64,000 nucleotides of DNA from Deltaproteobacteria bacterium (GTDB lineage Bacteria > Desulfobacterota > JBBIRW01), in the NCBI GenBank assembly GCA_037441565.1, contig JBBIRW010000003.1, positions 12,953 through 76,952 of the forward strand. Reading direction: 5' to 3'. The position numbers and the translations under genes were made by a program. Numbering within the stretch: position 1 is the first letter of the stretch; every line of letters starts with the position of its first letter. Under the pieces are notes generated by a model. It saw only the letters and a program-made list of their open reading frames with translations, was not told the DNA's origin and ran no database searches. Shown one piece after another: positions 1 to 23,729 of the stretch.

Positions 1-2
1 CA

Positions 3-164
3 AAGGGGTTGCTTGTAGGATGGGTAACAAGGGTTGAAAAAACAGGAGGGATCTTCCAGAAAATAGAGGTCTCCCCTTCTGCTCAATTAAAAAGCCTCGA
101 AGAGGTATTGGTGATAAAAACGCAGCCTGAGTTATTAAAAGACAAAAACTATATTGAGGAATGA
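3..164 (+). CDS. mreC: rod shape-determining protein MreC, C-terminal fragment (gene begins upstream of the window)
   Basis: Frame-3 translation ...KGLLVGWVTRVEKTGGIFQKIEVSPSAQLKSLEEVLVIK... has no in-frame stop until TGA at 162-164, which overlaps the mreD ATG (ATGA). The position immediately upstream of mreD-mrdA-rodA fits the canonical mreBCD order. Confidence 0.6.
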   Translation, partial: KGLLVGWVTRVEKTGGIFQKIEVSPSAQLKSLEEVLVIKTQPELLKDKNYIEE

Positions 165-658
165 AGAAAATCTCGCTCAATGCATTGGTTGCACTTTTTG
201 TGATTCTCATACAGAGTACTATTATTTCGCGCATCGATATCTCAAATCTTAAACCAGATATAACGGTTATCCTTATTGTATTCCTTGGCTTCAATGTTGG
301 TTTTAACCATGGTATGATCCTTTCCTTCCTATCGGGTTATCTGATGGATCTTCTTTCCGGTAGTCCATCAGGCTTCTTTTCCCTGATAAAAACCGCTGGA
401 TTCCTCCAAAGCTACCTCATCCGCAGAAAGGTGGTAACGGGTGGAAGCCTTTTCTTCTTCATCGTTGTGGGATTGATAAGTCTCCTTGAAGGGATAGAGT
501 CTATTATTCTTATCATACTTCTTGGAATCGATCGGTCCATTGTTTACCAGATATGGGAAAATCTCATATCTTATGCATCACTAAATGTTATCTCTGCTGT
601 ATTTCTTCAGACAATCATTCAAAGATTCAGGAAGCCTTCCCTTCAGGAAGGGGTATAG
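161..658 (+). CDS. mreD: rod shape-determining protein MreD (polytopic membrane protein)
   Basis: 165-aa hydrophobic multi-TM protein directly preceding PBP2, with the start overlapping the mreC stop. Size and context are typical of MreD. Confidence 0.75.
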   Translation: MKKISLNALVALFVILIQSTIISRIDISNLKPDITVILIVFLGFNVGFNHGMILSFLSGYLMDLLSGSPSGFFSLIKTAGFLQSYLIRRKVVTGGSLFFFIVVGLISLLEGIESIILIILLGIDRSIVYQIWENLISYASLNVISAVFLQTIIQRFRKPSLQEGV

Positions 659-2512: not shown

Positions 2513-3590
2513 GAACTTTGACTTCTTCCTTTTCTTTCTCACTTTGATACTGCTTCTGGCAGGACTTATAAACCTCTACAGTGCCACATTCAATCAATCA
2601 TCTGGAGGAGCATCTTCTATATTTTACAGACAGATCTACTGGACTGCATTAGGGATTCTAACCCTTCTGATCTTTGCATTCTTTGATTACCATTCTTTTG
2701 AGAACTATTCATATCATCTCTATGTACTTTCCATTGCCCTCCTTCTGCTTGTACTCATAGGAGGTAAAACAGTGGGTGGTGCGAAGAGATGGATCGGATT
2801 CGGCTCATTTACCATACAGCCATCTGAATTTGCAAAGCTGTGTCTGATCTTTGCCCTTTGCCGCTACTTCTCGCATAACCCAATCCCGGATGGTTACGGC
2901 CTATTCCAGATAATAATACCTATTGCAATATCCTCAATACCTGCAATTCTCATACTTTTTGAACCGGATCTCGGAACATCTGCCCTGTTGATGATAATGG
3001 CCTTCTCACTATTTGTTTATGCTGGCCTGCGTTTATATGCACTTTTATTTATGGTAATAGCCGGGGTTCTATCTACCCCTGTGCTCTGGGAATTTCTGAA
3101 GGATTATCAGAAGAAAAGGATCATCTACTTTCTTAACCCTGAATTGGACCCACTTGGTTCGGGATACCATCTGCTTCAATCCAAGATTGCCATAGGTTCG
3201 GGAAAACTTATCGGCAAGGGATTTCTGGAAGGCAAACAGGGGCAGCTTCACTTCCTACCAGAGGGGCATACGGATTTTATATTTTCTGTTTTTGCGGAGG
3301 AATGGGGATTTATAGGTGCTGTTGTGCTTCTTATTGCATTGGCTATGATAATTATTAAGGGGTTCCTTATTGCGGGAAATGCAAGGGATAGATTCGGAAC
3401 CTATGTAGCTGCATCAATTTCCTTTTATCTTCTCTGGCATACAGCTATCAACGTTGCTATGGTAACAGGCCTGATCCCTGTTGTGGGAATCCCCATGCCA
3501 TTTATGAGCTACGGTGGCTCTTTCCTATTTACAACAATGACATCCATAGGGATACTGATCAATATAAGCATGAAAAGAAATATCTTCTGA
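2490..3590 (+). CDS. rodA: peptidoglycan glycosyltransferase RodA (SEDS family, FtsW/RodA/SpoVE)
   Basis: Ten-TM SEDS-type protein with conserved C-terminal ...GIPMPFMSYGGSFLF. The start is set at ATG 2490 (MINQKGL), which has an AGAGGG RBS 7 nt upstream; the track ORF from 2457 would overlap mrdA. Confidence 0.9.
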   Translation: MINQKGLRNFDFFLFFLTLILLLAGLINLYSATFNQSSGGASSIFYRQIYWTALGILTLLIFAFFDYHSFENYSYHLYVLSIALLLLVLIGGKTVGGAKRWIGFGSFTIQPSEFAKLCLIFALCRYFSHNPIPDGYGLFQIIIPIAISSIPAILILFEPDLGTSALLMIMAFSLFVYAGLRLYALLFMVIAGVLSTPVLWEFLKDYQKKRIIYFLNPELDPLGSGYHLLQSKIAIGSGKLIGKGFLEGKQGQLHFLPEGHTDFIFSVFAEEWGFIGAVVLLIALAMIIIKGFLIAGNARDRFGTYVAASISFYLLWHTAINVAMVTGLIPVVGIPMPFMSYGGSFLFTTMTSIGILINISMKRNIF

Positions 3591-6328: not shown

Positions 6329-8314
6329 ATGAAAAGATATACCATAAAGCCCGCTATTGAGAAAAAACCCTTCAGAATAGATTACGAAAAGGAGCTAAAC
6401 CCTCAACAGCTTGAAGTAGTAATGGCGCCATCCGGTCCTATTCTCGTAATAGCGGGGGCAGGAAGTGGAAAGACAAGGGTTGTCACCTTCAGGGTTGCGA
6501 GGTTAATTGAATCAGGTGTTGACCCTTCAAGAATACTCCTCCTCACATTTACAAACAAGGCTGCAAAAGAAATGCTTCACCGTGTTGAACATCTCCTCAG
6601 TATAGACACGAGGAGCATATGGGGAGGAACTTTTCATCACACAGGAAATTTAATATTACGAAGGCATTCAGAAATTCTTGGGTTCAAATCAAACTTCACA
6701 ATACTGGACTCAGAAGATTCAAAGGAATTACTTGAAACATGTATAGCGGAACTTGGCATTGAGACAAAGAAGAAGAGATTTCCAAAAGGTGAAGTCCTCA
6801 GGGACATTTCGGGATTAAGCATAAACAGGGAAAAGAGCATTGAGGAGATATTTGATGAGAGATACCCTTATTTCCTTGACCTCCATGAAGAGATACAGAG
6901 TGTGCTTACATTTTACAAAAAGAAAAAATTTCAGATGAATGCCATGGATTTTGATGACCTTTTGCTTTACTGGAGACATTTGCTTGAAAATCACCCAGAT
7001 ATACTTAATTATTATGCAAACAGATTCCTTCATATCCTTGTTGATGAGTATCAGGATACAAACAAATTGCAAGCAGATATTGTTGATCTTCTCGCTTCCA
7101 CCCATAGGAATCTAATGGTTGTTGGAGATGATTCCCAGTCTATTTATTCATTCAGGGGCGCACATTTTTCAAATATAATTGATTTCCCTTCAAGATACCC
7201 TGACTGCAAGATTTTCAAACTTGAAATAAATTACAGGAGCACACCCCAGATACTCTCCCTTGCAAACTCATCCATCTCAAACAACAAAAGGCAGTTTAAG
7301 AAGAGGCTCGTTTCGGTCAGGAAAGACGGACCCCTTCCTGCCATAGTTTCCCTGAGGGATCCATCACTTCAAGCAGAGTTCGTTGCCCAGAGAATACTTG
7401 AATTGAGAGAAAATGGTATACCATTCAATGAGATCGCTGTCCTTTACAGGGCACATTACCAATCTATGGAATTGCAAATGGAGCTTACCAGGAGGGGTAT
7501 TCCATATGAGGTGAGATCAGGAATCAGGTTTTTTGAACAGGCACACATCAAGGACATAGTATCCTTCCTGCGCTTCATTCTCAACCCCCATGATGAACTC
7601 TCTTTTAAAAGGATCCTGAAGATCTATCCTGGTTTAGGTCCTTCAACTGCGGAGAGGCTCTGGAATCTCTGTGTCTCTTCCAACAATCCTATTGAGGCGC
7701 TGAAAAGTAATGATTCAAAAAAAATAATTCCAAAAATGGGGATCGATGGATACAGGGATTTTCTTGAAACGATCGATAAATTAACAAAATGTGATATAAA
7801 TTCTGAGCCTTCCCCTCTGATAGAGATCATACTCGAAGGTGGATACATTGATTACCTGATCAGCCGTTATCCAAATGCAGAGTCCCGCCTCGAGGATATC
7901 GAGCAGCTTTCACTTTTTGCAAAGAAATTCAAAAATCTTGAATCTCTCCTTAGCGAGCTTTCACTGATGAGTGCTGTTGCTGCTGAGGATATAGCAGAAT
8001 CTGAGGCAGAGGATGAAAGGGTAGTGCTCAGCTCCATCCATCAGGCAAAAGGGCTGGAATGGGGAGTCGTATTTATCATATATCTTGCTGAGGGCAGGAT
8101 GCCATCTGCAAAAGGACTTCGTGATCCCGAGGGTGAAGAGGAAGAGAGAAGACTCTTCTATGTTGGAACAACAAGGGCAAAGGATGAGCTTTATCTCTGT
8201 TATCCACTGATGGGAAATAGCTGGGAAAGAGGTGGCCTCCTTCTGAAGCCATCGAGATTTATCCAGGAGCTCCCTGAGAACGTTTACGAGGAGTGGATTG
8301 TGGAGGAAAAATGA
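6329..8314 (+). CDS. UvrD/PcrA/Rep-family ATP-dependent DNA helicase
   Basis: Walker A (AGAGSGKTRVVTFRV) and SF1 helicase motifs (LVDEYQDTN, VGDDSQSIYSFRGA, and Q/R motifs in the 2A domain), 662 aa. The ATG at 6329 is preferred over the TTG at 6323 reported by the track. Confidence 0.88.
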   Translation: MKRYTIKPAIEKKPFRIDYEKELNPQQLEVVMAPSGPILVIAGAGSGKTRVVTFRVARLIESGVDPSRILLLTFTNKAAKEMLHRVEHLLSIDTRSIWGGTFHHTGNLILRRHSEILGFKSNFTILDSEDSKELLETCIAELGIETKKKRFPKGEVLRDISGLSINREKSIEEIFDERYPYFLDLHEEIQSVLTFYKKKKFQMNAMDFDDLLLYWRHLLENHPDILNYYANRFLHILVDEYQDTNKLQADIVDLLASTHRNLMVVGDDSQSIYSFRGAHFSNIIDFPSRYPDCKIFKLEINYRSTPQILSLANSSISNNKRQFKKRLVSVRKDGPLPAIVSLRDPSLQAEFVAQRILELRENGIPFNEIAVLYRAHYQSMELQMELTRRGIPYEVRSGIRFFEQAHIKDIVSFLRFILNPHDELSFKRILKIYPGLGPSTAERLWNLCVSSNNPIEALKSNDSKKIIPKMGIDGYRDFLETIDKLTKCDINSEPSPLIEIILEGGYIDYLISRYPNAESRLEDIEQLSLFAKKFKNLESLLSELSLMSAVAAEDIAESEAEDERVVLSSIHQAKGLEWGVVFIIYLAEGRMPSAKGLRDPEGEEEERRLFYVGTTRAKDELYLCYPLMGNSWERGGLLLKPSRFIQELPENVYEEWIVEEK

Positions 8315-9513
8315 TCTCTTTCGAACTCCTTGCAGAAAGGGTGATTAAAAAAATTGATGAAATAAAGAGTAACATCATAGAACTCAGTCATTATATACAT
8401 TCAAATCCAGAGATTGCATGGGAAGAGGTCAAGTCATCAAAAAGGATTTTAGAAATCTTGAAGAGTTTTTCCTTTGAGATAGATCATGTACCGCCCTCCA
8501 CTCCAACAGCTGTTGTAGCGAGAAAAACAAAAACTCCATCACTATCTGTTGCATTTATCGCTGAATACGATGCCCTTCCAAAAATTGGACATGGATGCGG
8601 ACATAACATTATTGCGGCAAGCAGTGTGGGGGCTGCAGTAGGTATTTCGGATATAATCGATCAAATAAATGGATCCATCTATATTATCGGCACACCAGCA
8701 GAGGAAGGCGGCGGAGGAAAAATCCACCTCCTGAAGGAGGGCATCTTTGATGGGATTGATGTTGCAATGATGATCCATCCTTCAAACAGGACGCAGATTG
8801 TTAAAAGAACACTTGCTGTAAAGGAGGTTACCTTCAAATTTTACGGAAGATCATCACATGCATCAGCAACACCCTTTTTAGGTATCAATGCACTGGATGC
8901 TGTTATCCAGACCTTCAATGCTGTTAATGCCTTAAGGCAGCAACTCCGTCCTGATGCAAGGGTTCATGGCATAATACTGGATGGAGGCGTAAGACCAAAT
9001 ATCATCCCTGATTTTGCATCATGCCAGTTTCTTGTAAGGGCTATTGATCTCGATTATTTATATGAAATTCTTGAAAAGGTGAAGAACTGTGCGCATGGAG
9101 CAGCACTTTCAACGGGGGCGAGGCTTGAGGTGGATATCTCGGAAAGGGTTTATGAGCCATTCCTTCCAAATTATGAACTATCGGGTTTATTCAGGAAGCA
9201 TCTTAAATCATTGGGTGTTGTCCCGGATGAGGAAGACGAGATGAAAAATCTCGGATCATCCGATATTGGAAATATAAGCAGGCGCCTTCCAACCCTCCAT
9301 GCCTATATAGCTATTTGTGACAGAAACATTCCCCTCCACTCTTCCACCTTTGCAGATATGAGTAAATCCCCACGGGCTGATGAAGTATGTTTAATTGCAG
9401 CAAAGGCGCTTGCACTAACAGCACTTGAAATTATTATATCGCCGGATATTTTAAAAAGGATTAAGGAAGAATTTAGAAGATCCTCCTCCCGGGGACAATC
9501 TTACCAAGGATAA
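8311..9513 (+). CDS. M20D-family amidohydrolase/peptidase (HipO/AbgA-like)
   Basis: M20 metal-binding region (GHGCGHN...GTPAEEGGGGK...H) is present. The start is set at ATG 8311 (MISFELL), which has a GGAGGA RBS and an ATGA overlap with the helicase stop. Confidence 0.8.
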   Translation: MISFELLAERVIKKIDEIKSNIIELSHYIHSNPEIAWEEVKSSKRILEILKSFSFEIDHVPPSTPTAVVARKTKTPSLSVAFIAEYDALPKIGHGCGHNIIAASSVGAAVGISDIIDQINGSIYIIGTPAEEGGGGKIHLLKEGIFDGIDVAMMIHPSNRTQIVKRTLAVKEVTFKFYGRSSHASATPFLGINALDAVIQTFNAVNALRQQLRPDARVHGIILDGGVRPNIIPDFASCQFLVRAIDLDYLYEILEKVKNCAHGAALSTGARLEVDISERVYEPFLPNYELSGLFRKHLKSLGVVPDEEDEMKNLGSSDIGNISRRLPTLHAYIAICDRNIPLHSSTFADMSKSPRADEVCLIAAKALALTALEIIISPDILKRIKEEFRRSSSRGQSYQG

Positions 9514-10639
9514 CAGGACCTTTTGCACCTGTTACTGATGGGATATTCGCGGGGATATTTAGGAAACACTGTCTTGCCAGAAGGGCAAAAGTGACAGCCT
9601 CAACAGCATCAGCGTTAATTCCATAATCATCAAATACTCTTACAGGGATTGGATCCATTGCATCACTTAATGCCTTCATTATAGAAGGATTCCTCGATCC
9701 TCCACCACAAACAACTATTTCATCAATTCTATCCCAGGGAAGGAATTTTCTATAATGATACTCAACAGATCTTACTGTAAATGCAACAAGGGTTGCAAGC
9801 AAGTCACTGAGATCGATCATCCTTCTTCCACTCCATGTAAGGATGTTTTTAAGAAAAACGCCACCGAATTCCTCCCTGCTTGTTGATTTGGGAGGTCTTT
9901 TTTTCAAAAAAGGATGATTCATAAGGATATGAAGAAGTTCATCATTAACTTTTCCCTTAACAGCAATCCTTCCATCTCTGTCCATCCTCTTCCTTCCTCT
10001 GGAAAGTTGATATATAACAGAGTCAAGAAGTGCATTACCGGGTCCTGTATCAAAAGCTATAACATCATATAGTGAAGAATTGACTGAAATGAAAGTTACA
10101 TTTCCAATACCACCAAAATTCTGAACTGCAATATTTTTTAATGAATTTTTAAAAAACTCATAGTGAAAATATGGTGAAAGTGGAGCACCCTGCCCACCTG
10201 CTGCCATATCAGCAATCCGAAAATCACCAATAGTTATAATACCTGTCCTTTCAGCAATGACTGAAAGCTCACCGGCCTGAAATGTTACCCTTGTATTTTT
10301 GAAAATTCCCCTACCCTTTGATGGATAATGACATAATGTCTGTCCATGGGATCCTATAAGTGCTACATCTCTGATATCTATTCCACTATCCTTTACGATT
10401 CTTAATGCGGCTGAGGCAAAAAGATCACCAATGAGAAAATGTAAACGGAAAAGCTCTTCCATTTTCACATCCTCACCGGAGGACACATTCATTATCATCC
10501 TCCTTACCTTTTCAGGATACCTGTATGTTTTAAATGATATAAGGTTGAACTTCAGACCATTTTCACCTTGCTCTATATCAACAAGTGCAGCATCAATCCC
10601 ATCCGCCGACGTTCCTGAAATAAGACCTATTATTAACAA
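9473..10639 (-). CDS. anmK: anhydro-N-acetylmuramic acid kinase
   Basis: N-terminus MLIIGLISGTSADGIDAALVDI is typical of AnmK (ASKHA fold), and the size of about 380 aa fits. Confidence 0.88.
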   Translation of the reverse strand: MLIIGLISGTSADGIDAALVDIEQGENGLKFNLISFKTYRYPEKVRRMIMNVSSGEDVKMEELFRLHFLIGDLFASAALRIVKDSGIDIRDVALIGSHGQTLCHYPSKGRGIFKNTRVTFQAGELSVIAERTGIITIGDFRIADMAAGGQGAPLSPYFHYEFFKNSLKNIAVQNFGGIGNVTFISVNSSLYDVIAFDTGPGNALLDSVIYQLSRGRKRMDRDGRIAVKGKVNDELLHILMNHPFLKKRPPKSTSREEFGGVFLKNILTWSGRRMIDLSDLLATLVAFTVRSVEYHYRKFLPWDRIDEIVVCGGGSRNPSIMKALSDAMDPIPVRVFDDYGINADAVEAVTFALLARQCFLNIPANIPSVTGAKGPVILGKIVPGRRIF

Positions 10640-11658
10640 CCCTCGTTCCCCCTTTTTAAGAGAATTACTTTTTCCATGTAAACAACAGCATCTTCAACAG
10701 ATGTCCTATCAGGAAGATTTGATGACGGAAGCATTATACTTCTTGATATATGTGTATCTCTTCCTATATGGCAGTTATTACCTATAACAACAAATGGACC
10801 TGCTGTTACATTTTTTCCGATACTTACATTCTCACCTATAACAACAGGTGGAATTATCCTTACCCCTTTTTTGTATGTTGTATTCTCTTCAATCCAAACG
10901 CCTTTTTCCACCTCCACCCCCTTTCTCAGATGAAGAAAGAGCTCATTTCTCAGCATCTCCATTGATGCCCTGTGATACTCATGAATATTCCCCATCTCAA
11001 ACCATAAATTCTTGTGAAGGTATCCGTAAACCTCCTCCCCAGAAAGGATGATCGGGACAAGGGTATCTCTCACAATGCAGGATGGTTTTCCATCCCCAAT
11101 GAAATCAAATATCCTTGATGATAAAACCTGAAGACCAGCATACATATAATTAGCATCAGGGGATGATGCGGGCATTTGCTTTATTCTTAACTCATCATCT
11201 ATGACAACTCCACTGTATCCTTTTTCCCTTTTCCTTATAAGTAGAGTTGCAATCCCTCCTTTTGACATATGGTAACTTGCTATATGATCATAATCAACAT
11301 CCATAATTGTATCGCCATTAAGAAGAAACAGCATCGGCGTTTTTATATAAGATGATGCCTTTTTCAATCCCCCACCGGTTCCAAGCAGTTCATTTTCAAA
11401 GGAAAAATTTATCTTTATTCCATATCTATCACCAACTGCGATTATCTCCTTAAACTTCTCACTTAAATGATGAACATTCATAACGATTTCCCTGATTCCA
11501 CTCCTTGAGAGGAGATAGAGATGATATTCAATAAGTGGCACATTAAGGAGAGGAATCAACACCTTTGGATACCTTTCTGTAATGGGTCTCATCCTCATCC
11601 CGTAACCTGCTGCGAGTATCATGAAGGAGAAATCTTTTATCCTATCGGACTTTATCAT
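10633..11658 (-). CDS. sugar-1-phosphate nucleotidyltransferase with C-terminal left-handed beta-helix (MurU/GlmU-like NDP-sugar pyrophosphorylase)
   Basis: N-terminal NTP-transferase motif (ILAAGYGMRMRPITERYPKVLIP) and C-terminal hexapeptide repeats (GENVSIGKNVTAGPFVVIGNNCHIG). Translationally coupled to anmK downstream and to the AmgK-like kinase upstream. Confidence 0.7.
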   Translation of the reverse strand: MIKSDRIKDFSFMILAAGYGMRMRPITERYPKVLIPLLNVPLIEYHLYLLSRSGIREIVMNVHHLSEKFKEIIAVGDRYGIKINFSFENELLGTGGGLKKASSYIKTPMLFLLNGDTIMDVDYDHIASYHMSKGGIATLLIRKREKGYSGVVIDDELRIKQMPASSPDANYMYAGLQVLSSRIFDFIGDGKPSCIVRDTLVPIILSGEEVYGYLHKNLWFEMGNIHEYHRASMEMLRNELFLHLRKGVEVEKGVWIEENTTYKKGVRIIPPVVIGENVSIGKNVTAGPFVVIGNNCHIGRDTHISRSIMLPSSNLPDRTSVEDAVVYMEKVILLKRGNEGC

Positions 11659-12671
11659 TCAAGATAACCAAATAGAACTTTTTTTAAATTTCTCAGCCAG
11701 GGGAACTTCTCAAGATTCTCACGGACATAGGAAAGGGTTGCCGGTATATAAGAAAGGTAATCATCTTTTCCCCTGACGGTCTTCTGATATGCAAATGTAC
11801 CCACTGCCTTGAGATTCCTCTGTATGCTCATAAGATCAAAAATCTCCATAAACCTCTCACGGTTATCTATCCTGCAACCATGTTCTATAAGGTTATCAAT
11901 ATAGTATGAAAGCATCCTGTTCCTTATCTCATCAGGAATGACCGTGTATGAGTCCCTGAGGAGCGATGCAATGTCATACTGAAGAGGACCCATCCTTGCA
12001 TCCTGGAAATCGATAATTCTTATTTCATCAGTGTAAATCATTATATTTCTGCTATGATAGTCCCTGTGTGTAAAGAAACGAGGCTCATGTGAAAGTATAT
12101 CGCAAATAAAGTGAAACTCCTTTCTCAAGATATTGAGGTCACAATTTGTTATTTTCCTTCCGAGAAGACCCTCTATCATGTGTTTAAGGAAAAAATCGAT
12201 TTCAAACATCAGTTTCTCTGTATCAAAACATACATGGCTGGCAATACACTCATCATCTAATCTTTCTGTTCCAACAGTCTGTATAAGAACAAGCTCATCG
12301 ATTGCCTTTCTGTAAATACGGATGAATTCCTCTTCTGATTTTCCAGCAAGATATTCCTGCATGGTGATATCCCCAACATCCTCAAGTATTATTATCCCTT
12401 CCTCAAGATTAAAAAAGTATATATTTGGGATACTGCAACCTATTCTGTTAAGATGCCTGTAAATATTTAGAAATGGATATTGAAAAGGATCACTGAGTCT
12501 TATGGACTCGTTCAAATCCATTAGCACAACCGAGGGGATCTGAGAGTCATGAAGAGTAATTCTGTAATAAGATCTAACAGATGCATCTCCTCTCAGTTTC
12601 TCAACAGATATATCTGAAAAGGTAAAGCCTGCTTCCCTGCTTAGAATCTCAGAGATTCTACCTTCATTCAT
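11655..12671 (-). CDS. aminoglycoside-phosphotransferase-fold sugar kinase, AmgK-like (N-acetylmuramate/N-acetylglucosamine anomeric kinase candidate)
   Basis: APH/ChoK-fold with the Brenner motif HRDYHSRNIMI and an IDFQDA (DFG-like) motif. It overlaps the start of the nucleotidyltransferase, a kinase/NTP-transferase pairing like the AmgK-MurU pair. Confidence 0.65.
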   Translation of the reverse strand: MNEGRISEILSREAGFTFSDISVEKLRGDASVRSYYRITLHDSQIPSVVLMDLNESIRLSDPFQYPFLNIYRHLNRIGCSIPNIYFFNLEEGIIILEDVGDITMQEYLAGKSEEEFIRIYRKAIDELVLIQTVGTERLDDECIASHVCFDTEKLMFEIDFFLKHMIEGLLGRKITNCDLNILRKEFHFICDILSHEPRFFTHRDYHSRNIMIYTDEIRIIDFQDARMGPLQYDIASLLRDSYTVIPDEIRNRMLSYYIDNLIEHGCRIDNRERFMEIFDLMSIQRNLKAVGTFAYQKTVRGKDDYLSYIPATLSYVRENLEKFPWLRNLKKVLFGYLE

Positions 12672-13494
12672 TGATGATCCTCATAAATTCCCCGTGAATT
12701 CTGTTAACCTCGCGGAGAAGTAGTTCATTTTTGCTTTCTCCCTGATCCCTCAATTCATATACAAATGGCCCGCTGTATCCTTTTCTCGAAAGAATCTCCA
12801 GCATCTCACTCCACGGTATCGTCCCTTGAAAGGGAAGAAGATGTTCATCACTGGAGCCCTTATTATCATGAATATGTATTGTCATAAGGTGGTTTATTAT
12901 GGCCTCAAGATTTTCTGAGAAATTACCAGAAATATGAGCATGTCCTGTATCAAAACATGTTCCAATTCTCAAAGATGAATATCTCTCTATGAAGGTGAGG
13001 ATGGAGTTTATCGATGCCGAAGAAGAAACACCATTTTCAAGTGCAATATTCAGGGCCATTCCATTACAATGATCCAGGATCTCCCCCAGTGAATAGAAAA
13101 GATTCTCCATCTCTTCCTCATTTATATCTCCCGAAAGACCTGTGTGGGTAATAACAGTATTACAATCAAAGAACTCCATCGCATCGACGACCCTCTTGAA
13201 AAGATCCAGCGTCCTCCTCCTTAATGATCTATCCTTGCTTGCCAGACTGAGCCATCTTCCCTTCACTGCATCGGAAATATCCTCATAAAGCGGCCCATGA
13301 AAGGATATAACCTTTATTCCATGAGAAGAGATGATATCCGCTATTTGCTTCAGATAATCCCTGTTATCGAATTCAAAATGAGGCTTCATTGCCCAGATTT
13401 CAAGGAACTGAAAGTTATTCCTGCTAATAATATCTATTGTTTCTCTTGACAGAGGATTGTAAAGGAAAAGGTGTGTGGAAATTGCCTTTATCAT
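12664..13494 (-). CDS. xylose-isomerase-like TIM-barrel sugar-phosphate isomerase/epimerase (AP_endonuc_2 fold)
   Basis: TIM-barrel family motifs (...VITHTG..., ...FDTGHAHISG..., ...HIHD...). Overlaps the AmgK-like gene by 8 nt and is the first gene of the operon. Confidence 0.75.
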   Translation of the reverse strand: MIKAISTHLFLYNPLSRETIDIISRNNFQFLEIWAMKPHFEFDNRDYLKQIADIISSHGIKVISFHGPLYEDISDAVKGRWLSLASKDRSLRRRTLDLFKRVVDAMEFFDCNTVITHTGLSGDINEEEMENLFYSLGEILDHCNGMALNIALENGVSSSASINSILTFIERYSSLRIGTCFDTGHAHISGNFSENLEAIINHLMTIHIHDNKGSSDEHLLPFQGTIPWSEMLEILSRKGYSGPFVYELRDQGESKNELLLREVNRIHGEFMRIINE

Positions 13495-13565
13495 AATTAA
13501 TAAATAATAACATCACCGTACACCATGGTCAATTTCCTAAAGCCATAACCCTACTCCTCCTTTTA

Positions 13566-15674
13566 TTGAAAGATGATCAACTATGTGATAATTTTCCTTT
13601 TATAATGTTAGGGGTCATCATCCAGATATTACTGGCACTTTCCTTATTAACCCAAAAAGCATACCCTTTAAACATTCCCATCGATATGGAGACAAAAAAG
13701 TTCCTCTCTGATGTCTCATCATCAAAGATCGAGAATATAGATACCGCCATATTAAAACTGGAGTCCATGAGGGGAAGATTAACGGAAATAGATGATTACC
13801 TCCTCTATTTCATTATAAAGCTTTACCTGAAAAAGGGAGACATCCAGGGGGCATACAGATATCTCGATCAATTTAATAACACTCATCAAAGATCCATCCT
13901 GAGGGGAAAGGTGAACCTCGCTTTTGCAAAAAGCCTCTATGAAAATGGGAATCCTGATGATGCACACAAATTTATAAAAATTGCAATGGAATGCTGGCTT
14001 GGAAGATCAAAGCCTGAGGCTCTGCTCATCGAAGGTCTCATACTTGAATCGATGGGAAATATAAGGGATGCGCTCAAATCATACTACAGGCTTCGTGGAG
14101 CCTTCCCCCTCTCTCCGGAGGTCAGAATAGCGAAGCAGAGAACCGAGCTTATCAGGAAAACAAGAGATATAACGCTGTATCCTTCGCTGGAGGAATATCT
14201 CTTTGTCGAAGGATCACTCCTAATAAAGGAAAGGCAATATGATGAAGCGGCTAAAAATCTTGATAGACTCATAAAGGAATTCCCTGAAAGTAATTTCGCA
14301 AGGGAGGGTAAATTCAAAAGGGCAGAGCTATTTGTGTTAATGGGAGAGCCGAAAAAGGCCCTTGATAGATTTATCAGCATAAAAAATGCATATCCAGGAC
14401 AGAGGATAGCTGCAGAAAGTATTATCAAGGCGATAAGTATTCTGTGGAAGGAAGATTCCATAAGTGATGTAAGATCCCTTGCACTTGAGCTTTACAATAA
14501 TTATCCCTATATCCCGTGGTCAGACAAGGCAGCCTATATCCTGGGCAGATTGTTTGAGGAGGAGGGGAAATGGGATCAGGCAGCATCCCTCTATAAAAAG
14601 GCATTGGACCAGTTCAAGAATAGCCCACTTCAAGAGAATCTTATGAAGAGAATAGCCTGGTGCTACTACTTAAAAGGGGATTTTTCTCGCTCCTCGGAAA
14701 TCTTCAATAAATTATCCAATAAATTTTCATCCCTTAAAGAATATGGCCTTTACTGGAAGGCAAGATCATTTGAAAAGATGGGCAAGAGGAGGGAGGCATG
14801 GGAAATCTTTAATTCATTGGCTAATCTTCCCTATACCTCCTATTATGGGGTCCTTTCATTAAAAAAGATAGGAAAATTAACCCCATGCAATGAAGGACGG
14901 ATCAGAGAAACCAAGGATAATAAAGGTGATGGCGCTTTCAATATTCCAGGGCTATTACGAGCAATGATACTGTCCGAATTATCTCTTCTTCCAGAAGCCG
15001 AGGAGGAGCTGGATGTCATAAGTAAGGCTGGTCTCGATCTGTCTGAAAAGCTCCAGCTCTCCCGCCTTTATAAAAAGGCCGGTTCACCTTATAAATCAAT
15101 AAAGATCGCATCCTCCATTGAAATGGAGTTAAAAAGCCGTAATGAGTTAGCCTTACCACTTCCTGAACTTGATATCCTGCTATTTCCCCTTGAATATAAA
15201 GATGAGATAATTAAATATTCCTCGGAAAACGGATTTGATCCTCTACTGATAGCCTCGATAATCAGACAGGAGAGTGCCTTTGACCCAGCAGCCATCTCGA
15301 GATCAAATGCGCTGGGACTCATGCAGATCATTCCTCAAACAGGGGTAATGATTGCAAAGAAAACAGGAATTTCGGAATTCACCCCTGATATGCTCTATCA
15401 ACCATCCATAAATATAGAGCTGGGCATATCCTATCTGAAGATGCTTAACAAAAAATTTAAAGGCGATACCATAAAAACCCTTGCAGCCTATAATGCGGGA
15501 GAAACAATTGTAGAAAAATGGTGGAAGAGGATTTCACATATGGAAGACGATGAAATTGTTGAGAATATACCCTACAGTGAAACAGAGAACTACATAAAGA
15601 ATATAATAAGAAACCACTACCATTACAGAAGGATATACTGTGAATCATCCGCGATGCCCAATCCATCCCTGTAA
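13566..15674 (+). CDS. soluble lytic murein transglycosylase (Slt70-like; superhelical TPR-like N-terminus + SLT catalytic domain)
   Basis: C-terminal SLT-domain motifs (ASIIRQESAFDPAAISRSNALGLMQIIPQTG; AYNAGE) and a long alpha-helical repeat N-terminus with signal/TM. Confidence 0.88.
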   Translation: MKDDQLCDNFPFIMLGVIIQILLALSLLTQKAYPLNIPIDMETKKFLSDVSSSKIENIDTAILKLESMRGRLTEIDDYLLYFIIKLYLKKGDIQGAYRYLDQFNNTHQRSILRGKVNLAFAKSLYENGNPDDAHKFIKIAMECWLGRSKPEALLIEGLILESMGNIRDALKSYYRLRGAFPLSPEVRIAKQRTELIRKTRDITLYPSLEEYLFVEGSLLIKERQYDEAAKNLDRLIKEFPESNFAREGKFKRAELFVLMGEPKKALDRFISIKNAYPGQRIAAESIIKAISILWKEDSISDVRSLALELYNNYPYIPWSDKAAYILGRLFEEEGKWDQAASLYKKALDQFKNSPLQENLMKRIAWCYYLKGDFSRSSEIFNKLSNKFSSLKEYGLYWKARSFEKMGKRREAWEIFNSLANLPYTSYYGVLSLKKIGKLTPCNEGRIRETKDNKGDGAFNIPGLLRAMILSELSLLPEAEEELDVISKAGLDLSEKLQLSRLYKKAGSPYKSIKIASSIEMELKSRNELALPLPELDILLFPLEYKDEIIKYSSENGFDPLLIASIIRQESAFDPAAISRSNALGLMQIIPQTGVMIAKKTGISEFTPDMLYQPSINIELGISYLKMLNKKFKGDTIKTLAAYNAGETIVEKWWKRISHMEDDEIVENIPYSETENYIKNIIRNHYHYRRIYCESSAMPNPSL

Positions 15675-20308: not shown

Positions 20309-21304
20309 ATGATATCCATAGTTATTCCATGTTTTAATGAGGAGAAGAGTCTGGAACCCCTTGTTGAGAAAATCAGAGATGTAATGAGCAGGATAACTGA
20401 AAGCTATGAAATAATCATTGTTGATGACGGCAGCACAGATAGAAGCACAGAAAGGATAAAAAATCTTTCCTTACGCTATACATCCGTCAAAGGATTAAGG
20501 CTCAAGAGGAACTTTGGACAAACAGCTGCCCTTGCATGCGGTTTTCATTATGCAAAAGGTGAGATAATAGTAACGATGGATGCGGATTTACAGAATGATC
20601 CTGAAGACATCCCTATTCTCCTTGAAAAAATAAATCAGGGCTATGATGTTGTAAGTGGATGGAGAATCAACAGGAAGGATAATTTCCTTACAAGAATTCT
20701 TCCATCAAAGATCGCAAACTACCTGATAGGAAAAATCACCGGTATAAAACTCCATGATTATGGATGCTCACTCAAGGCATACAGATCGGAAGTTATTAAA
20801 AATATGGAGCTTTACGGAGAACTTCACAGATTCATACCGGCGCTTGCAAAGATACAGGGTGCAGAAATAACAGAGGTGCCTGTTCAACATCATCCCCGTA
20901 TTCACGGAAAAAGTAAATATACACTTTCAAGAACATTTCGCGTTCTGCTTGATCTTATTCTTGTCAAGTTCCTTCTGAGTTATTCCACAAGACCGATTCA
21001 CTTTTTTGGAGCAGCTGGTCTTTTATTCTCATCGATCGGTTTTCTTATCTGCCTTTATCTTGGTTCAATGAAAATCCTCTATGCATACAGCATAGGGGGG
21101 AGACCACTGCTCCTCCTCGGAATACTTTTAATAACTACAGGCATACAGTTGCTTACAATCGGAATCCTTTCTGAGATCCAGATAAGAACATATTTTGAAT
21201 CACAGAAAAAGCCCATTTATGCAGTAAAGGAATTCATCAACATAAAAGAGACGAATCACTCAGGTAAGGTTTTCAACAAAGCTTCTGTTTCTGTCAAGGA
21301 TTGA
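20309..21304 (+). CDS. GT2 polyprenyl-phosphate glycosyltransferase (ArnC/DPM1/GtrB-like)
   Basis: GT2 N-terminus ISIVIPCFNEE...IIVDDGSTD, a DAD motif (TMDADLQND) and two C-terminal TM helices. Confidence 0.88.
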   Translation: MISIVIPCFNEEKSLEPLVEKIRDVMSRITESYEIIIVDDGSTDRSTERIKNLSLRYTSVKGLRLKRNFGQTAALACGFHYAKGEIIVTMDADLQNDPEDIPILLEKINQGYDVVSGWRINRKDNFLTRILPSKIANYLIGKITGIKLHDYGCSLKAYRSEVIKNMELYGELHRFIPALAKIQGAEITEVPVQHHPRIHGKSKYTLSRTFRVLLDLILVKFLLSYSTRPIHFFGAAGLLFSSIGFLICLYLGSMKILYAYSIGGRPLLLLGILLITTGIQLLTIGILSEIQIRTYFESQKKPIYAVKEFINIKETNHSGKVFNKASVSVKD

Positions 21305-22309
21305 ATAGAAAAGTCTCTTCTGAAAGCGCTGTACAGGAGGGAGTGATCTCCTTACTGTTTCAATTCTTCTGTGGCTTGCCTCAAGCTCAATCCTGTCAAT
21401 CTTTCCTTCCCTTATTGCTTTCTCAATCCCCTCTATTGCCATAAGTTGTTTTTTGTAATCATGACATATGAGCACAAGATCACATCCCGCCTTAAGCGAA
21501 AGCACAGCTGCCTCCTCTATTGAATAATTTGAAACGATCGCACCCATTTCCATATCATCAGTTATCACAAGGCCCCTGAACTCCAACTCCTCCCTGAGAA
21601 GATTTCTTATAATAATCCTTGAGAGTGTAGCCGGAAAAACATCGTCAATTAAAGTATAAAGGATATGTGCTGTCATTATGAGATTTACGCCCTCCTTTAT
21701 AGCCTCAATAAATGGTATTAGCTCCAGGTTTTTTAATCTTTCGATACTGTGATTTAAAACAGGCATATCATGATGGGAATCAGTTAACGTATCACCGTGC
21801 CCGGGAAAATGCTTACCCGTGGAAAGCAAACCAGCACTTCTCAGCCCCCTTATAACTGCCCTTCCCAGTCTTGCAACCTTATGTGGCTCCTTTCCCATTG
21901 ATCTATCACCAATCGCAAGATTCATCGGATTTGTATTCACATCAAGGACAGGGGAGAAAACTGCATTGATTCCAACATGGCTCAGTTCCTCACCAATGGC
22001 TTTCCCGAATGAATACGCAAGAAGTTCTGAGTCCCTTAATCCAAGATCCCTCATGGATGGAAATGGCGTAAAGGGTTCCTTTAATCTAAGAACCCTTCCG
22101 CCTTCTTGATCGACAAATATGAAAAGGGGGGTCTTTGATAGAGATTGGATTTCATGACACAGATTGTGAATTTGTTCCGGGCTTTCATAATTTCTTGTAA
22201 AAAGAACAATGCCTGCTATTCCCTTCCTTATAAGATCTTTTAATTCAACAGAAACACTCTTTCCCTTAAATCCTGCAACGATGAATGACCCACCCTGAAA
22301 ATTGGACAT
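21260..22309 (-). CDS. nagZ: beta-N-acetylhexosaminidase NagZ (GH3)
   Basis: GH3 N-terminal domain motifs (GGVILFTRN-like ...AGIVLFTRNY..., ...KHFPGHGDT...DSH..). The start is trimmed to ATG 22309 (MSNFQGG), which has an AGGA RBS 7 nt upstream and avoids overlap with lpd. Confidence 0.85.
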   Translation of the reverse strand: MSNFQGGSFIVAGFKGKSVSVELKDLIRKGIAGIVLFTRNYESPEQIHNLCHEIQSLSKTPLFIFVDQEGGRVLRLKEPFTPFPSMRDLGLRDSELLAYSFGKAIGEELSHVGINAVFSPVLDVNTNPMNLAIGDRSMGKEPHKVARLGRAVIRGLRSAGLLSTGKHFPGHGDTLTDSHHDMPVLNHSIERLKNLELIPFIEAIKEGVNLIMTAHILYTLIDDVFPATLSRIIIRNLLREELEFRGLVITDDMEMGAIVSNYSIEEAAVLSLKAGCDLVLICHDYKKQLMAIEGIEKAIREGKIDRIELEASHRRIETVRRSLPPVQRFQKRLFYSILDRNRSFVENLT

Positions 22310-22319
22310 CTTCAGATCC

Positions 22320-23729
22320 TCACGGTGTTTTTCCTCTGGGTGGAAGGTGAATGGCATTTCCATAGAAATCGTGGGCTGCCTCCATCAGTGACTCAGAAAA
22401 GCATGGGTGTGCATGAATTGTCTCAGCAATATCCCTGATATGAAGTCCAGCCCGCATAGCAACAGCAATCTCATGCACTAAATCAACAGCATGAGGTCCA
22501 ATTATATGTGCACCGATAATCCTCCCACTTTCACTATCTCCTATAATCTTTACCTCACCCACGATCTCCCCGGATGCATGTGATTTACCCAGAGCACGGA
22601 ATGGAAACCTTCCAATTCGAACGTTATATCCTGCTTCTCTTGCCTGCTTCTCCGTGAGTCCAATCCTCCCTATCTCTGGAGATGTAAATATACCCACGGG
22701 AACAACAGAGTAGTCCATCATTATTCTTCCACCTGTTGCATTCACTGCAGCCACAATCCCCTCTGCTGAGGCAACATGAGCAAGCATTAAACCCCCTACT
22801 ACATCACCAGCAGCATATATTCCTTTAACAACAGTTTCCATATACTCATTGACCCGCACAAACCCCTTTCCATACATATCGACACCGATCTCCTCAAGAC
22901 CAATCATGCTGGAATTTGGAGCCCTTCCAACAGAGACAATAATAATATCTGCCTCTACTGTCTTTCCATTGGAAAGATACGCCCTGATACCCTCTTCACC
23001 TTTTTCCACTGACTCAACCTTTGATTTAAGATGGAGGTCAATCTTTCTTTTTCTCATTTCCCTTTCAAGTATTTTTGAGATATCCTCATCTTCAAAGGGA
23101 AGCACCCTTTCCATGATCTCAACGGCAGTGACCCTGCATCCAAGCATATTAAAAATCATCGCATATTCACATCCGATAACACCTGCACCCACTATAAGCA
23201 CCCTCTCCGGTAGATATTCAAGACTCACAGCCTGATCTCCGGAAATGATCTTCTTTCCATCTATTTCCAGTCCCGGAAGATTATCAGGCCTTGAGCCTGT
23301 GCAGAGTATAATACTTCCGCAGGTGACCTCCATTTCTTCACCATCAACATTTACAAGCACCCTTCCCTTTCCCAGCACCTTCCCTTCTCCCCTGATAAGG
23401 TTAATTCCATTCTGTTTAAAAAGCGTTTCTATCCCATTTGAAAGTATACTCACAATTCGTTCCTTTCTTGAAATCGCATCCTTCATAGAAAAATAAACAT
23501 TTCCCTCTATCCTTATTCCAAACTCATTTGCCCTTCTTATTGATTCAAAAGCCGCTGCTGATGCTACAAGTGATTTTGTAGGTATACACCCTCTGTTAAG
23601 ACACACACCTCCAGTTTTCTCCTTCTCGATCACAAAAACCGAAGCACCCAGCTGTGCTGCCTTTATAGCTGCCACATATCCTGCAGGACCAGAGCCGATC
23701 ACTGCAATATCACACTTTTCCATTTTCAT
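22320..23729 (-). CDS. lpd: dihydrolipoyl dehydrogenase (E3)
   Basis: FAD-binding site (VIGSGPAGY), redox-active disulfide (GGVCLNRGCIPTK), NAD-binding site (VGAGVIGCE) and a dimerisation domain with HAHP. Confidence 0.92.
   Translation of the reverse strand: MKMEKCDIAVIGSGPAGYVAAIKAAQLGASVFVIEKEKTGGVCLNRGCIPTKSLVASAAAFESIRRANEFGIRIEGNVYFSMKDAISRKERIVSILSNGIETLFKQNGINLIRGEGKVLGKGRVLVNVDGEEMEVTCGSIILCTGSRPDNLPGLEIDGKKIISGDQAVSLEYLPERVLIVGAGVIGCEYAMIFNMLGCRVTAVEIMERVLPFEDEDISKILEREMRKRKIDLHLKSKVESVEKGEEGIRAYLSNGKTVEADIIIVSVGRAPNSSMIGLEEIGVDMYGKGFVRVNEYMETVVKGIYAAGDVVGGLMLAHVASAEGIVAAVNATGGRIMMDYSVVPVGIFTSPEIGRIGLTEKQAREAGYNVRIGRFPFRALGKSHASGEIVGEVKIIGDSESGRIIGAHIIGPHAVDLVHEIAVAMRAGLHIRDIAETIHAHPCFSESLMEAAHDFYGNAIHLPPRGKTP

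What the first reader, a model, noticed from the sequence alone, without database searches (positions are those of the whole stretch)
9473..13494. Four-gene translationally coupled MurNAc recycling-bypass operon with an unexplained TIM-barrel isomerase
anmK, a GlmU/MurU-like nucleotidyltransferase, an AmgK-like APH-fold kinase (HRDYHSRN, IDFQD) and a xylose-isomerase-like TIM-barrel gene overlap start-to-stop (12664/12671, 11655/11658, 10633/10639). The AnmK/AmgK/MurU route that recycles MurNAc back to UDP-MurNAc, bypassing de novo MurA/MurB synthesis, is established in Pseudomonas and confers intrinsic fosfomycin tolerance. The described pathway uses a HAD phosphatase (MupP) or a SIS etherase (MurQ), not a TIM-barrel enzyme. 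Here a TIM-barrel 'sugar phosphate isomerase/epimerase' is the first, coupled gene of the operon. Slt (13566), nagZ (21260), the elongasome genes (1-3590) and murA (58146) sit in the same window. The nucleotidyltransferase is also atypical, carrying a left-handed beta-helix tail that canonical MurU lacks.
Basis: partly seen in the sequence, partly recalled or inferred. Interest (0 to 1): 0.55.

Follow-up and report, generated by a model that had tools for sequence, protein, structure and literature searches.

The report
Cell-wall sugar salvage operon, new enzyme
Four overlapping genes encode a route that turns recycled cell-wall sugar (MurNAc) back into its activated building block, and the unexplained first gene looks like a zinc-dependent phosphate-removing enzyme rather than an isomerase, probably doing the step that a different, unrelated enzyme does in Pseudomonas.

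Summary
Four minus-strand genes (9473-13494) overlap by 8, 4 and 7 nt. They encode a TIM barrel, an AmgK-like kinase, a MurU-like nucleotidyltransferase with a short beta-helix tail, and AnmK.

The TIM barrel is probably not an isomerase. It belongs to the uncharacterised MJ1311 family (PDB 3WQO). A global profile alignment matches all nine ligands of the endonuclease IV three-metal site. That points to phosphoester hydrolysis.

The TIM gene lies directly upstream of the AmgK-like gene in 8 of 14 other TIM-carrying genomes of the window's phylum. It does so in 40 of 40 in a second phylum, and in several metagenome contigs. It often also sits beside Slt, AnmK or NagZ.

None of 55 TIM-carrying genomes has MurQ, and 46 have AnmK. 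No MupP ortholog was found in the 201 genomes sampled from the window's phylum.

Best reading (about 0.5): a non-HAD MurNAc-6-phosphate phosphatase that stands in for MupP. Counter-evidence: one family keeps the cluster without AnmK, and 15 AnmK+AmgK genomes lack the TIM gene.

First readers of this scan noted the same arrangement in at least six other genomes. I found no paper that links the two.

The parts
13504..13532 (-). promoter-like site (TTGACC-17-TATTAT with a TG extension) in the 71-bp gap between slt and the TIM gene
   Evidence: it is a consensus match only (10 of 12), and the region holds fewer such sites than its shuffles.
12664..13494 (-). MJ1311-family TIM barrel (P0001, 276 aa) with an endonuclease IV-type three-metal site; proposed MurNAc-6-phosphate phosphatase
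   Evidence: Pfam AP_endonuc_2, 113 bits. Profile against 3WQO E 8e-39. AF2 model pLDDT 94.8 and TM 0.83 to 3WQO. Nine ligands aligned to Nfo. Conserved upstream of AmgK-like genes.
11655..12671 (-). AmgK-like anomeric sugar kinase (P0002, 338 aa), APH fold, with HRDYHSRN and IDFQD
   Evidence: NCBIfam AmgK models score 133 and 100 bits; the next family scores 25 bits. The only PDB hit is 3CSV.
10633..11658 (-). MurU-like sugar-1-phosphate nucleotidyltransferase (P0003, 341 aa) with a short C-terminal left-handed beta-helix (about residues 245-330)
   Evidence: The N-domain alone matches MurU NF045761 best (129 bits). The tail matches only the first ~83 helix positions of Arch_glmU.
9473..10639 (-). 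AnmK, anhydro-N-acetylmuramic acid kinase (P0004, 388 aa, TTG start)
   Evidence: NF007148 scores 437 bits (cut-off 387); Pfam AnmK scores 334 bits.
13566..15674 (+). Slt-type lytic transglycosylase (TPR + SLT domain), divergent from the operon; the pairing is conserved
   Evidence: Pfam SLT 106 bits. A homolog lies divergent from the TIM gene in L004, L151, L152, L156, L158 and L162.
21260..22363 (-). NagZ beta-N-acetylhexosaminidase, an associated recycling step 8 kb away
   Evidence: NF003740 scores 263 bits (cut-off 207). In the second phylum NagZ closes the same operon as TIM-AmgK.
8293..9513 (+). M20 amidohydrolase, convergent with anmK and overlapping its 3' end by 41 bp; its link to the pathway is tentative
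   Evidence: TIGR01891 scores 214 bits (cut-off 154). The same neighbour is present in L004. The genome has no AmpD hit.

Best explanation

Proposed steps:
1. AnmK opens 1,6-anhydro-MurNAc, the product of lytic transglycosylases such as the divergently encoded Slt, and makes MurNAc-6-phosphate.
2. The TIM-barrel protein removes the 6-phosphate. It is an MJ1311-family enzyme with an endonuclease IV-type three-metal centre.
3. The AmgK-like kinase phosphorylates free MurNAc at C1.
4. The MurU-like nucleotidyltransferase makes UDP-MurNAc, bypassing MurA/MurB.

On this reading the TIM barrel is a non-homologous stand-in for the HAD phosphatase MupP of Pseudomonas.

What is shown: the gene order and overlaps; the family assignments of AnmK, kinase and transferase; the metal-ligand set of the TIM barrel; the conserved TIM-AmgK adjacency; and the lack of MurQ and of a MupP ortholog.

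What is inferred: the substrate of each enzyme, and above all the phosphatase activity and its substrate.
For: (1) Chemistry. H66, H117, E153, D182, H185, H209, D216, H218 and E247 are invariant or nearly so in 52 homologs. In a global profile alignment (98% probability) they align with the nine residues of the genome's own Nfo. By alignment to E. coli 1QTW and from memory of Hosfield 1999, those nine are the ligands of the trinuclear zinc site. Ketose epimerases keep only four of them (established knowledge). The best NCBIfam match is the phosphodiesterase CbiR, a superfamily member that acts on a small molecule (PMC7733943).

(2) Closest structure. This is the function-less MJ1311, 3WQO.

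(3) Gene linkage.
- TIM->AmgK->NTP is colinear in 8 of 14 other TIM-carrying genomes of the window's phylum, spanning four families.
- TIM->AmgK is adjacent in 40 of 40 TIM-carrying genomes of a second phylum.
- It is also seen in L004, L005, L069, L168, L169 and L173.
- AnmK is adjacent in two families with different orientations.
- Slt lies divergent in four families.
- NagZ sits in the same operon in the second phylum.

(4) Pathway gap.
- The window's genome has AnmK, but no MurQ (best 32 bits against a cut-off of 302) and no MupP (best HAD 33 bits against 359).
- MupP scored over the cut-off in 0 of 201 genomes.
- MurQ is in 0 of 55 TIM-carrying genomes, and AnmK is in 46 of 55.
- In the window's phylum MurQ occurs only in AnmK+ genomes that lack both AmgK and TIM.
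Against: - Four genomes of one family (99-100% complete) keep Slt<>TIM-AmgK-NTP but have no AnmK even at E 0.01. Four further TIM-carrying genomes of the window's phylum also lack it (two are only 84% and 91% complete), and so does the genome of L069.
- Nine genomes of the window's phylum and six of the second phylum have AnmK and AmgK, no MurQ and no TIM. Another phosphatase must therefore exist.
- The window's genome has four generic HAD phosphatases that could do the job.
- The MupP model is narrow and rings in none of the 14 control genomes, Caulobacter included. Its absence therefore says little.
- A large Terriglobia clade of the same TIM family sits beside a gamma-glutamyltranspeptidase in MurQ-positive genomes. 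The family as a whole is therefore not tied to this step.
- To my knowledge, no phosphomonoesterase acting on a free sugar phosphate has been characterised in this superfamily.
- In the second phylum no nucleotidyltransferase lies beside the kinase.
Confidence: 0.5

Rival explanations
1. The TIM barrel is a metal-dependent phosphoesterase that works with the AmgK-like kinase on a different substrate. Candidates are GlcNAc-6-phosphate or another amino-sugar phosphate or phosphodiester. It would release the free sugar that the anomeric kinase then phosphorylates, giving a two-step 6-P to 1-P bypass that does not depend on AnmK.
For: The conserved core is TIM-AmgK, not TIM-AnmK. Family f51 keeps the cluster without AnmK. 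AmgK is annotated as a MurNAc/GlcNAc kinase (NCBIfam name). In the second phylum the operon continues with GNAT, FemAB-like acetyltransferase, GT4, PIG-L deacetylase and NagZ genes rather than a nucleotidyltransferase.
Against: AnmK is in 46 of 55 TIM-carrying genomes and is adjacent in two families. MurNAc-6-phosphate is the only intermediate of the operon's own enzymes that lacks a consumer in this genome.
Confidence: 0.2
2. The TIM barrel acts on the sugar itself. It would be an isomerase or epimerase, or an enzyme that opens the 1,6-anhydro ring of anhydro-MurNAc without ATP, so that AmgK can use the product directly.
For: Fold matches are dominated by ketose 3-epimerases. PF01261 enzymes (LgdB1) take part in opening the 1,6-anhydro ring of levoglucosan (PMC10066097). 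Family f51 has Slt, TIM, AmgK and NTP but no AnmK. An earlier first-reader note (e1-5096841) proposed the same.
Against: The five extra metal ligands beyond the epimerase tetrad are invariant or nearly so, which an epimerase does not need. LgdB1 acts by beta-elimination on a 3-keto sugar made by a dehydrogenase (PMC10066097). MurNAc carries a lactyl ether on O3, and no oxidoreductase is in the operon. If TIM replaced AnmK, the two should not share one operon, yet they do here and in L004, and they are adjacent in family f29. Scores against the epimerase and isomerase models are 20-40 bits against cut-offs near 300.
Confidence: 0.12
3. The kinase and nucleotidyltransferase activate some other sugar for a surface glycan. 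AnmK, Slt and NagZ are merely neighbours, and the TIM barrel serves that other pathway.
For: Both enzymes score far below the AmgK and MurU equivalog cut-offs (133 against 550; 129 against 250). AmgK-like genes occur in 135 of 201 genomes, and most of those lack both AnmK and TIM. Sources annotate the transferase only as 'NDP-sugar synthase'. Glycosyltransferase genes follow in the second phylum.
Against: Linkage to peptidoglycan-turnover genes (Slt, AnmK, NagZ, a PBP5-type carboxypeptidase in L005) recurs in independent arrangements. In the window's phylum 16 of 17 AnmK+ MurQ- genomes carry the AmgK-like gene, while all 8 MurQ+ genomes lack it.
Confidence: 0.1
4. The TIM barrel is a second AP endonuclease acting on DNA.
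For: All nine endonuclease IV ligands are present. MJ1311 was once listed as the predicted EndoIV homolog of M. jannaschii (PMC2770678).
Against: The genome has a canonical Nfo that scores E 3e-52 to E. coli endonuclease IV. P0001 scores only 19-26 bits on the Nfo models against cut-offs of 130-333. Its gene context is cell-wall sugar genes in every lineage examined. From memory, the 3WQO paper reports no DNA-binding groove.
Confidence: 0.03

Closest known systems
AnmK-MupP-AmgK-MurU anabolic MurNAc recycling of Pseudomonas (Gisin 2013; Borisova 2017, PMC5371407; Fumeaux and Bernhardt 2017, PMC5371409)
   Same: AnmK, an AmgK-like kinase and a MurU-like transferase are present. MurQ is absent and MurA is present. 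The logic is the same: anhydro-MurNAc to MurNAc-6-P to MurNAc to MurNAc-1-P to UDP-MurNAc.
   Different: No MupP (HAD) ortholog was found. All four genes sit in one overlapping operon led by a TIM-barrel gene. The transferase carries a beta-helix tail. AmpG and AmpD were not found in this genome.
MJ1311 of Methanocaldococcus jannaschii, PDB 3WQO ('D-tagatose 3-epimerase-like protein')
   Same: Same family (profile E 8e-39, 24% identity, TM 0.83). Same HxHDN...DEH motif set. From memory, the structure paper notes the nine conserved endonuclease IV zinc ligands and no DNA groove.
   Different: MJ1311 has no known function, and its host is an archaeon without murein. The window's protein is tied to AmgK-like genes.
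Endonuclease IV (Nfo; 1QTW)
   Same: TIM barrel of the same superfamily. All nine ligands of the trinuclear metal centre are conserved.
   Different: Very low overall similarity (19-26 bits on the Nfo models). A separate genuine Nfo exists in the genome. The gene context is sugar salvage, not repair.
CbiR cobamide-remodelling phosphodiesterase (PMC7733943)
   Same: It is the best-scoring NCBIfam model for P0001 and for its paralog. It is a precedent for a small-molecule phosphoesterase in this superfamily that was found through gene neighbourhood.
   Different: 44 bits against a cut-off of 105. No cobamide genes lie nearby.
LgdB1 3-keto-levoglucosan beta-eliminase (PF01261; PMC10066097)
   Same: Same Pfam family. 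It acts on a 1,6-anhydro sugar.
   Different: It needs a 3-keto intermediate and a partner dehydrogenase. Neither is possible or present for 3-O-lactyl MurNAc here.

Membership tests
AnmK (NCBIfam NF007148; Pfam PF03702) | Whole-protein score over the curated equivalog cut-off | tested here: met
   437.5 bits against a cut-off of 387; Pfam 334 bits.
AmgK (NCBIfam NF045759 / NF045698) | Score over the equivalog cut-off | tested here: not met
   132.9 against 550, and 99.6 against 500. These are still the best models by more than 100 bits.
AmgK | APH-fold catalytic loop HRDxxxxN and the metal-binding DFQD motif | tested here: met
   HRDYHSRN and IDFQD are in P0002. Pfam APH scores 65 bits.
AmgK | Gene paired with a MurU-type nucleotidyltransferase | tested here: met
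   4-nt overlap here. The same pairing is seen in the loci.
AmgK | Phosphorylates MurNAc/GlcNAc at C1 | not testable with these tools
   Needs an enzyme assay.
MurU (NCBIfam NF045761) | Score over the equivalog cut-off | tested here: not met
   129 bits against 250. It is nevertheless the best model for the catalytic domain alone.
MurU | Single-domain protein of about 225-240 aa | tested here: not met
   341 aa with an LbH tail at about 245-330. Short forms of 228-242 aa pair with AmgK-like genes in other genomes.
MupP (NCBIfam NF009696, HAD-IA) | HAD fold with a score over the cut-off | tested here: not met
   P0001 is a TIM barrel. The best HAD of the genome scores 32.7 against 359. The claim is 'works like MupP', not membership.
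MJ1311-like TIM barrels (PDB 3WQO) | Full-length sequence and fold similarity | tested here: met
   Profile E 8.4e-39 over residues 1-268. Foldseek TM 0.83/0.84.
Endonuclease IV-type trinuclear metal site | Nine ligands (3 His/Glu, Glu/Asp/His/Glu, His/Asp/His) | tested here: met
   H66, H117, E153, D182, H185, H209, D216, H218 and E247 align to the Nfo ligands. They are invariant or nearly so in 52 sequences. Metal occupancy itself was not tested.
Endonuclease IV (Nfo) | Score over the Nfo model cut-offs | tested here: not met
   19-26 bits against cut-offs of 130-333.
Ketose 3-epimerases / sugar-phosphate isomerases | Score over any curated epimerase or isomerase model cut-off | tested here: not met
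   Best is 40 bits against 305 (fructoselysine 3-epimerase). The others score 15-33 bits against 200-353.
CbiR | Score over the cut-off, and cobamide gene context | tested here: not met
   44 bits against 105. No cobamide genes are adjacent.

The most novel reading that the evidence does not exclude
The MJ1311 family has a solved structure but no assigned function. On this reading it is a new, non-HAD class of MurNAc-6-phosphate (amino-sugar phosphate) phosphatase built on an endonuclease IV-type three-metal TIM barrel. It would be the missing MupP step of anabolic peptidoglycan recycling in Nitrospinota-like and other uncultured Gram-negative lineages.
Probability: 0.45. Interest if true: 0.7.

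Novelty: new variant of a known kind. Interest (0 to 1): 0.58.

Why it matters
The AnmK-MupP-AmgK-MurU shortcut is the basis of intrinsic fosfomycin tolerance. It is used as a tool for metabolic labelling of cell walls. Its phosphatase step is known only from Proteobacteria.

A conserved, unrelated metalloenzyme in that position would have three consequences:
- It would give a first function to a structurally solved orphan family.
- It would add a phosphomonoesterase activity to the xylose-isomerase/endonuclease IV superfamily.
- It would let annotators recognise the recycling route in many uncultured phyla, where the gene is now called 'sugar phosphate isomerase/epimerase'.

The hypothesis can be tested directly with one purified protein and one substrate.

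Tried and rejected
These have a gamma-glutamyltranspeptidase-TIM-AsnRS context and no kinase. The tree shows they form a separate clade (98% SH-aLRT). They are MurQ-positive, so they say nothing about this operon.
- The MupP model NF009696 found nothing over its cut-off in 201 genomes. It also rings in none of the control genomes, so I give that absence little weight.
- Local profile alignments to Nfo stopped after five ligands. Only a global hhalign covered all nine.
- In six TIM-less genomes of the second phylum an M28 peptidase occupies the slot upstream of the kinase. I considered it a functional replacement. I rejected that because it carries an N-terminal signal-like hydrophobic segment, whereas the TIM protein has none.
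- I looked for a HAD gene beside AmgK or AnmK in the TIM-less AnmK+ genomes and found none.
- The paper on 3WQO could not be fetched. Its content is cited from memory only.
- Literature searches found no paper that links AmgK, MurU or MurNAc with a TIM barrel or xylose-isomerase-like protein.
- Sequencing runs: no RNA holder is listed. The DNA holders are subsurface metagenomes of one study, which may be the source.
- No complex prediction was run, because I make no binding claim.
- The taxon of the window's genome could not be named. Its close relatives are unnamed assemblies.

Full report
**Observation**

- The junctions read ATGAATGA, ATGA and TTGTTAA. These give overlaps of 8, 4 and 7 nt.
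- A promoter-like site (TTGACC-17-TATTAT) lies in the 71-bp gap to the divergent slt gene.
- No convincing terminator separates the genes.
- The named neighbours are confirmed: PBP2, RodA, Slt, NagZ and MurA.
- The window lies in a 1.87-Mb genome that is 98% complete and in 24 contigs. It comes from subsurface metagenomes.

**The three recognisable enzymes**
- AnmK passes its equivalog cut-off (437 against 387 bits).
- The kinase has an APH fold with HRDYHSRN and IDFQD. Its two best NCBIfam models are both AmgK (133 and 100 bits). The next family scores 25 bits, and Pfam choline kinase scores 18. It is therefore AmgK-like, although far below the equivalog cut-offs.
- The nucleotidyltransferase as a whole scores best on archaeal GlmU-type and ManC-type models, because of its tail. 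Its catalytic domain alone scores best on MurU (129 bits).
- The tail matches only the first ~83 positions of a GlmU-type beta-helix. It is therefore a short helix, not a full acetyltransferase domain.
- In related genomes the AmgK-like gene is paired with either tailed (310-390 aa) or untailed (228-242 aa) transferases. Public sources call the tailed form 'NDP-sugar synthase'.

**The TIM barrel**

Pfam places it in AP_endonuc_2. It reaches no curated isomerase, epimerase, Nfo or CbiR cut-off. The best NCBIfam model is the phosphodiesterase CbiR at 44 bits.

A 52-sequence alignment shows these positions as invariant or nearly invariant: H66, R92, H117, E153, N154, D182, H185, H207, H209, D210, D216, H218 and E247.

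The closest solved structure by far is MJ1311, PDB 3WQO (E 8e-39). The AlphaFold model has pLDDT 94.8 and superposes on 3WQO at TM 0.83.

A global profile-profile alignment to the genome's own endonuclease IV (98% probability) pairs nine residues with conserved residues of that enzyme. These are H66, H117, E153, D182, H185, H209, D216, H218 and E247.

By alignment to E. coli 1QTW, those correspond to H69, H109, E145, D179, H182, H216, D229, H231 and E261. From memory of Hosfield 1999, these nine are the ligands of the trinuclear zinc centre. Also from memory, the 3WQO paper made the same observation and saw no DNA groove. I could not fetch it.

Epimerases of this fold need only the E-D-H-E tetrad. 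The extra five conserved ligands argue for phosphoester hydrolysis. CbiR shows that this superfamily includes small-molecule phosphoesterases (PMC7733943).

**Gene neighbourhood**

In a sample of 201 species from the window's phylum:
- The TIM protein (E<=1e-20) is in 15 genomes.
- In 8 of the 14 others it is followed colinearly by the AmgK-like and transferase genes. These span four families at 31-39% TIM identity.
- An Slt homolog lies divergent from the TIM gene in four families.
- AnmK is adjacent in two families. It is co-directional here and in L004, and convergent in family f29.

In a second phylum, that of a MAG titled Nitrospinota (51 species):
- The TIM gene is in 40 genomes, plus one broken or divergent copy.
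- It lies immediately upstream of the AmgK-like gene in all 40.
- The operon runs on through two GNAT-type genes, a GT4 glycosyltransferase and a PIG-L deacetylase to NagZ.

Further TIM-kinase pairs occur on an Acidobacteriota genome, in a different gene order (L069), and on metagenome contigs.

First readers of this scan noted the same trio in at least six other genomes, none of them followed up. I treated these as leads only.

**Phyletic pattern**

Window's phylum:

| Feature | Genomes |
|---|---|
| AmgK-like | 135/201 |
| AnmK | 25/201 |
| MurQ | 8/201 |
| MupP over cut-off | 0/201 |

- All eight MurQ genomes have AnmK and lack both AmgK and TIM.
- Of the 17 AnmK+ MurQ- genomes, 16 have AmgK and 7 have TIM.
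- All 15 TIM genomes have AmgK and none has MurQ.

Second phylum:

| Feature | Genomes |
|---|---|
| AnmK | 50/51 |
| MurQ | 0/51 |
| AmgK | 49/51 |
| AmpD | 4/51 |

Across both phyla, 46 of 55 TIM carriers have AnmK and none has MurQ.

The window's genome itself has no MurQ. It has no MupP-like HAD, no AmpD and no AmpG.

**Mechanism proposed**

Between AnmK and the AmgK-like kinase, the only missing chemical step is MurNAc-6-P to MurNAc. The only unassigned enzyme in the operon has the metal site of a phosphoesterase. I therefore propose a MupP-like MurNAc-6-phosphate phosphatase, with confidence about 0.5.

**What speaks against it**
- Family f51 (four genomes, 99-100% complete) keeps Slt<>TIM-AmgK-NTP with no AnmK at E 0.01.
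- Fifteen AnmK+AmgK+ MurQ- genomes lack TIM, so another phosphatase exists.
- Generic HADs are present in the window's genome.
- A well-supported Terriglobia clade of the family sits next to a gamma-glutamyltranspeptidase in MurQ-positive genomes, one of which lacks AmgK.

The family is thus broader than this one role, and the conserved core is TIM plus kinase.

**Rivals**
- A phosphoesterase for another amino-sugar phosphate that feeds the kinase (0.2).
- A sugar-modifying or anhydro-ring-opening enzyme (0.12). PF01261 eliminases do act on levoglucosan (PMC10066097). That chemistry needs a free 3-OH and a dehydrogenase, which 3-O-lactyl MurNAc and this operon do not offer. It also does not explain the extra metal ligands.
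- A different nucleotide-sugar pathway (0.1).
- A DNA endonuclease (0.03).

**Novelty**

Full-text searches found no paper connecting AmgK, MurU or MurNAc with a TIM-barrel or xylose-isomerase-like protein. MupP is described only as a HAD enzyme of Proteobacteria (PMC5371407; Caulobacter homolog in PMC13046382). The pathway is known. The candidate enzyme and the compact operon are a new variant of it.

Noticed in passing
window 8293-9513 (+): An M20 amidohydrolase (TIGR01891, 214 bits) overlaps the 3' end of anmK tail to tail by 41 bp, and the same neighbour is kept in L004. The genome has no AmpD (PF01510) or AmpG (TIGR00901) hit, so this enzyme could stand in for the MurNAc-L-Ala amidase or a peptide-trimming step.
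   Followed up: partly
own genome G000:C7:46383-50079 (loci L002, L003, L093): A second MJ1311-like TIM barrel (26% identical to P0001, same HxHDN...DEH motifs) lies next to a beta-phosphoglucomutase-family HAD hydrolase and the canonical endonuclease IV gene.
   Followed up: partly
L201:1402-7935 and L199:1611-8407 (second phylum): The conserved operon reads TIM - AmgK-like - GNAT - Acetyltransf_6 (FemAB-like) - GT4 glycosyltransferase - PIG-L deacetylase - NagZ. No nucleotidyltransferase lies beside the kinase. The GT4/PIG-L pair recalls thiol-glycoside (bacillithiol-type) synthesis genes.
   Followed up: partly
L205:7082-7981, L207:3733-4746, L208:6487-7515: In TIM-less members of the second phylum a secreted-looking M28 metallopeptidase sits in the slot upstream of the (NTP-)AmgK genes.
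   Followed up: partly
L006, L007, L008 and most of L011-L088 (Terriglobia/Acidobacteriota): A separate clade of the same TIM family overlaps the stop of a gamma-glutamyltranspeptidase gene. It is followed by an AsnRS/AspRS-type synthetase, an arginase and a D-Ala-D-Ala ligase. Its function is unknown.
   Followed up: partly
L144:3897-5516 (G075): An AnmK ORF with an N-terminal extension of about 150 residues (the longest ORF is 539 aa and the AnmK domain starts at residue 156) lies 1.4 kb from the NTP-AmgK pair. The start codon was not verified.
   Followed up: no
L163:4669-6629 (G006): Two MJ1311-like TIM genes lie in tandem. One is closer to P0001 and the other to the paralog TIM2.
   Followed up: no
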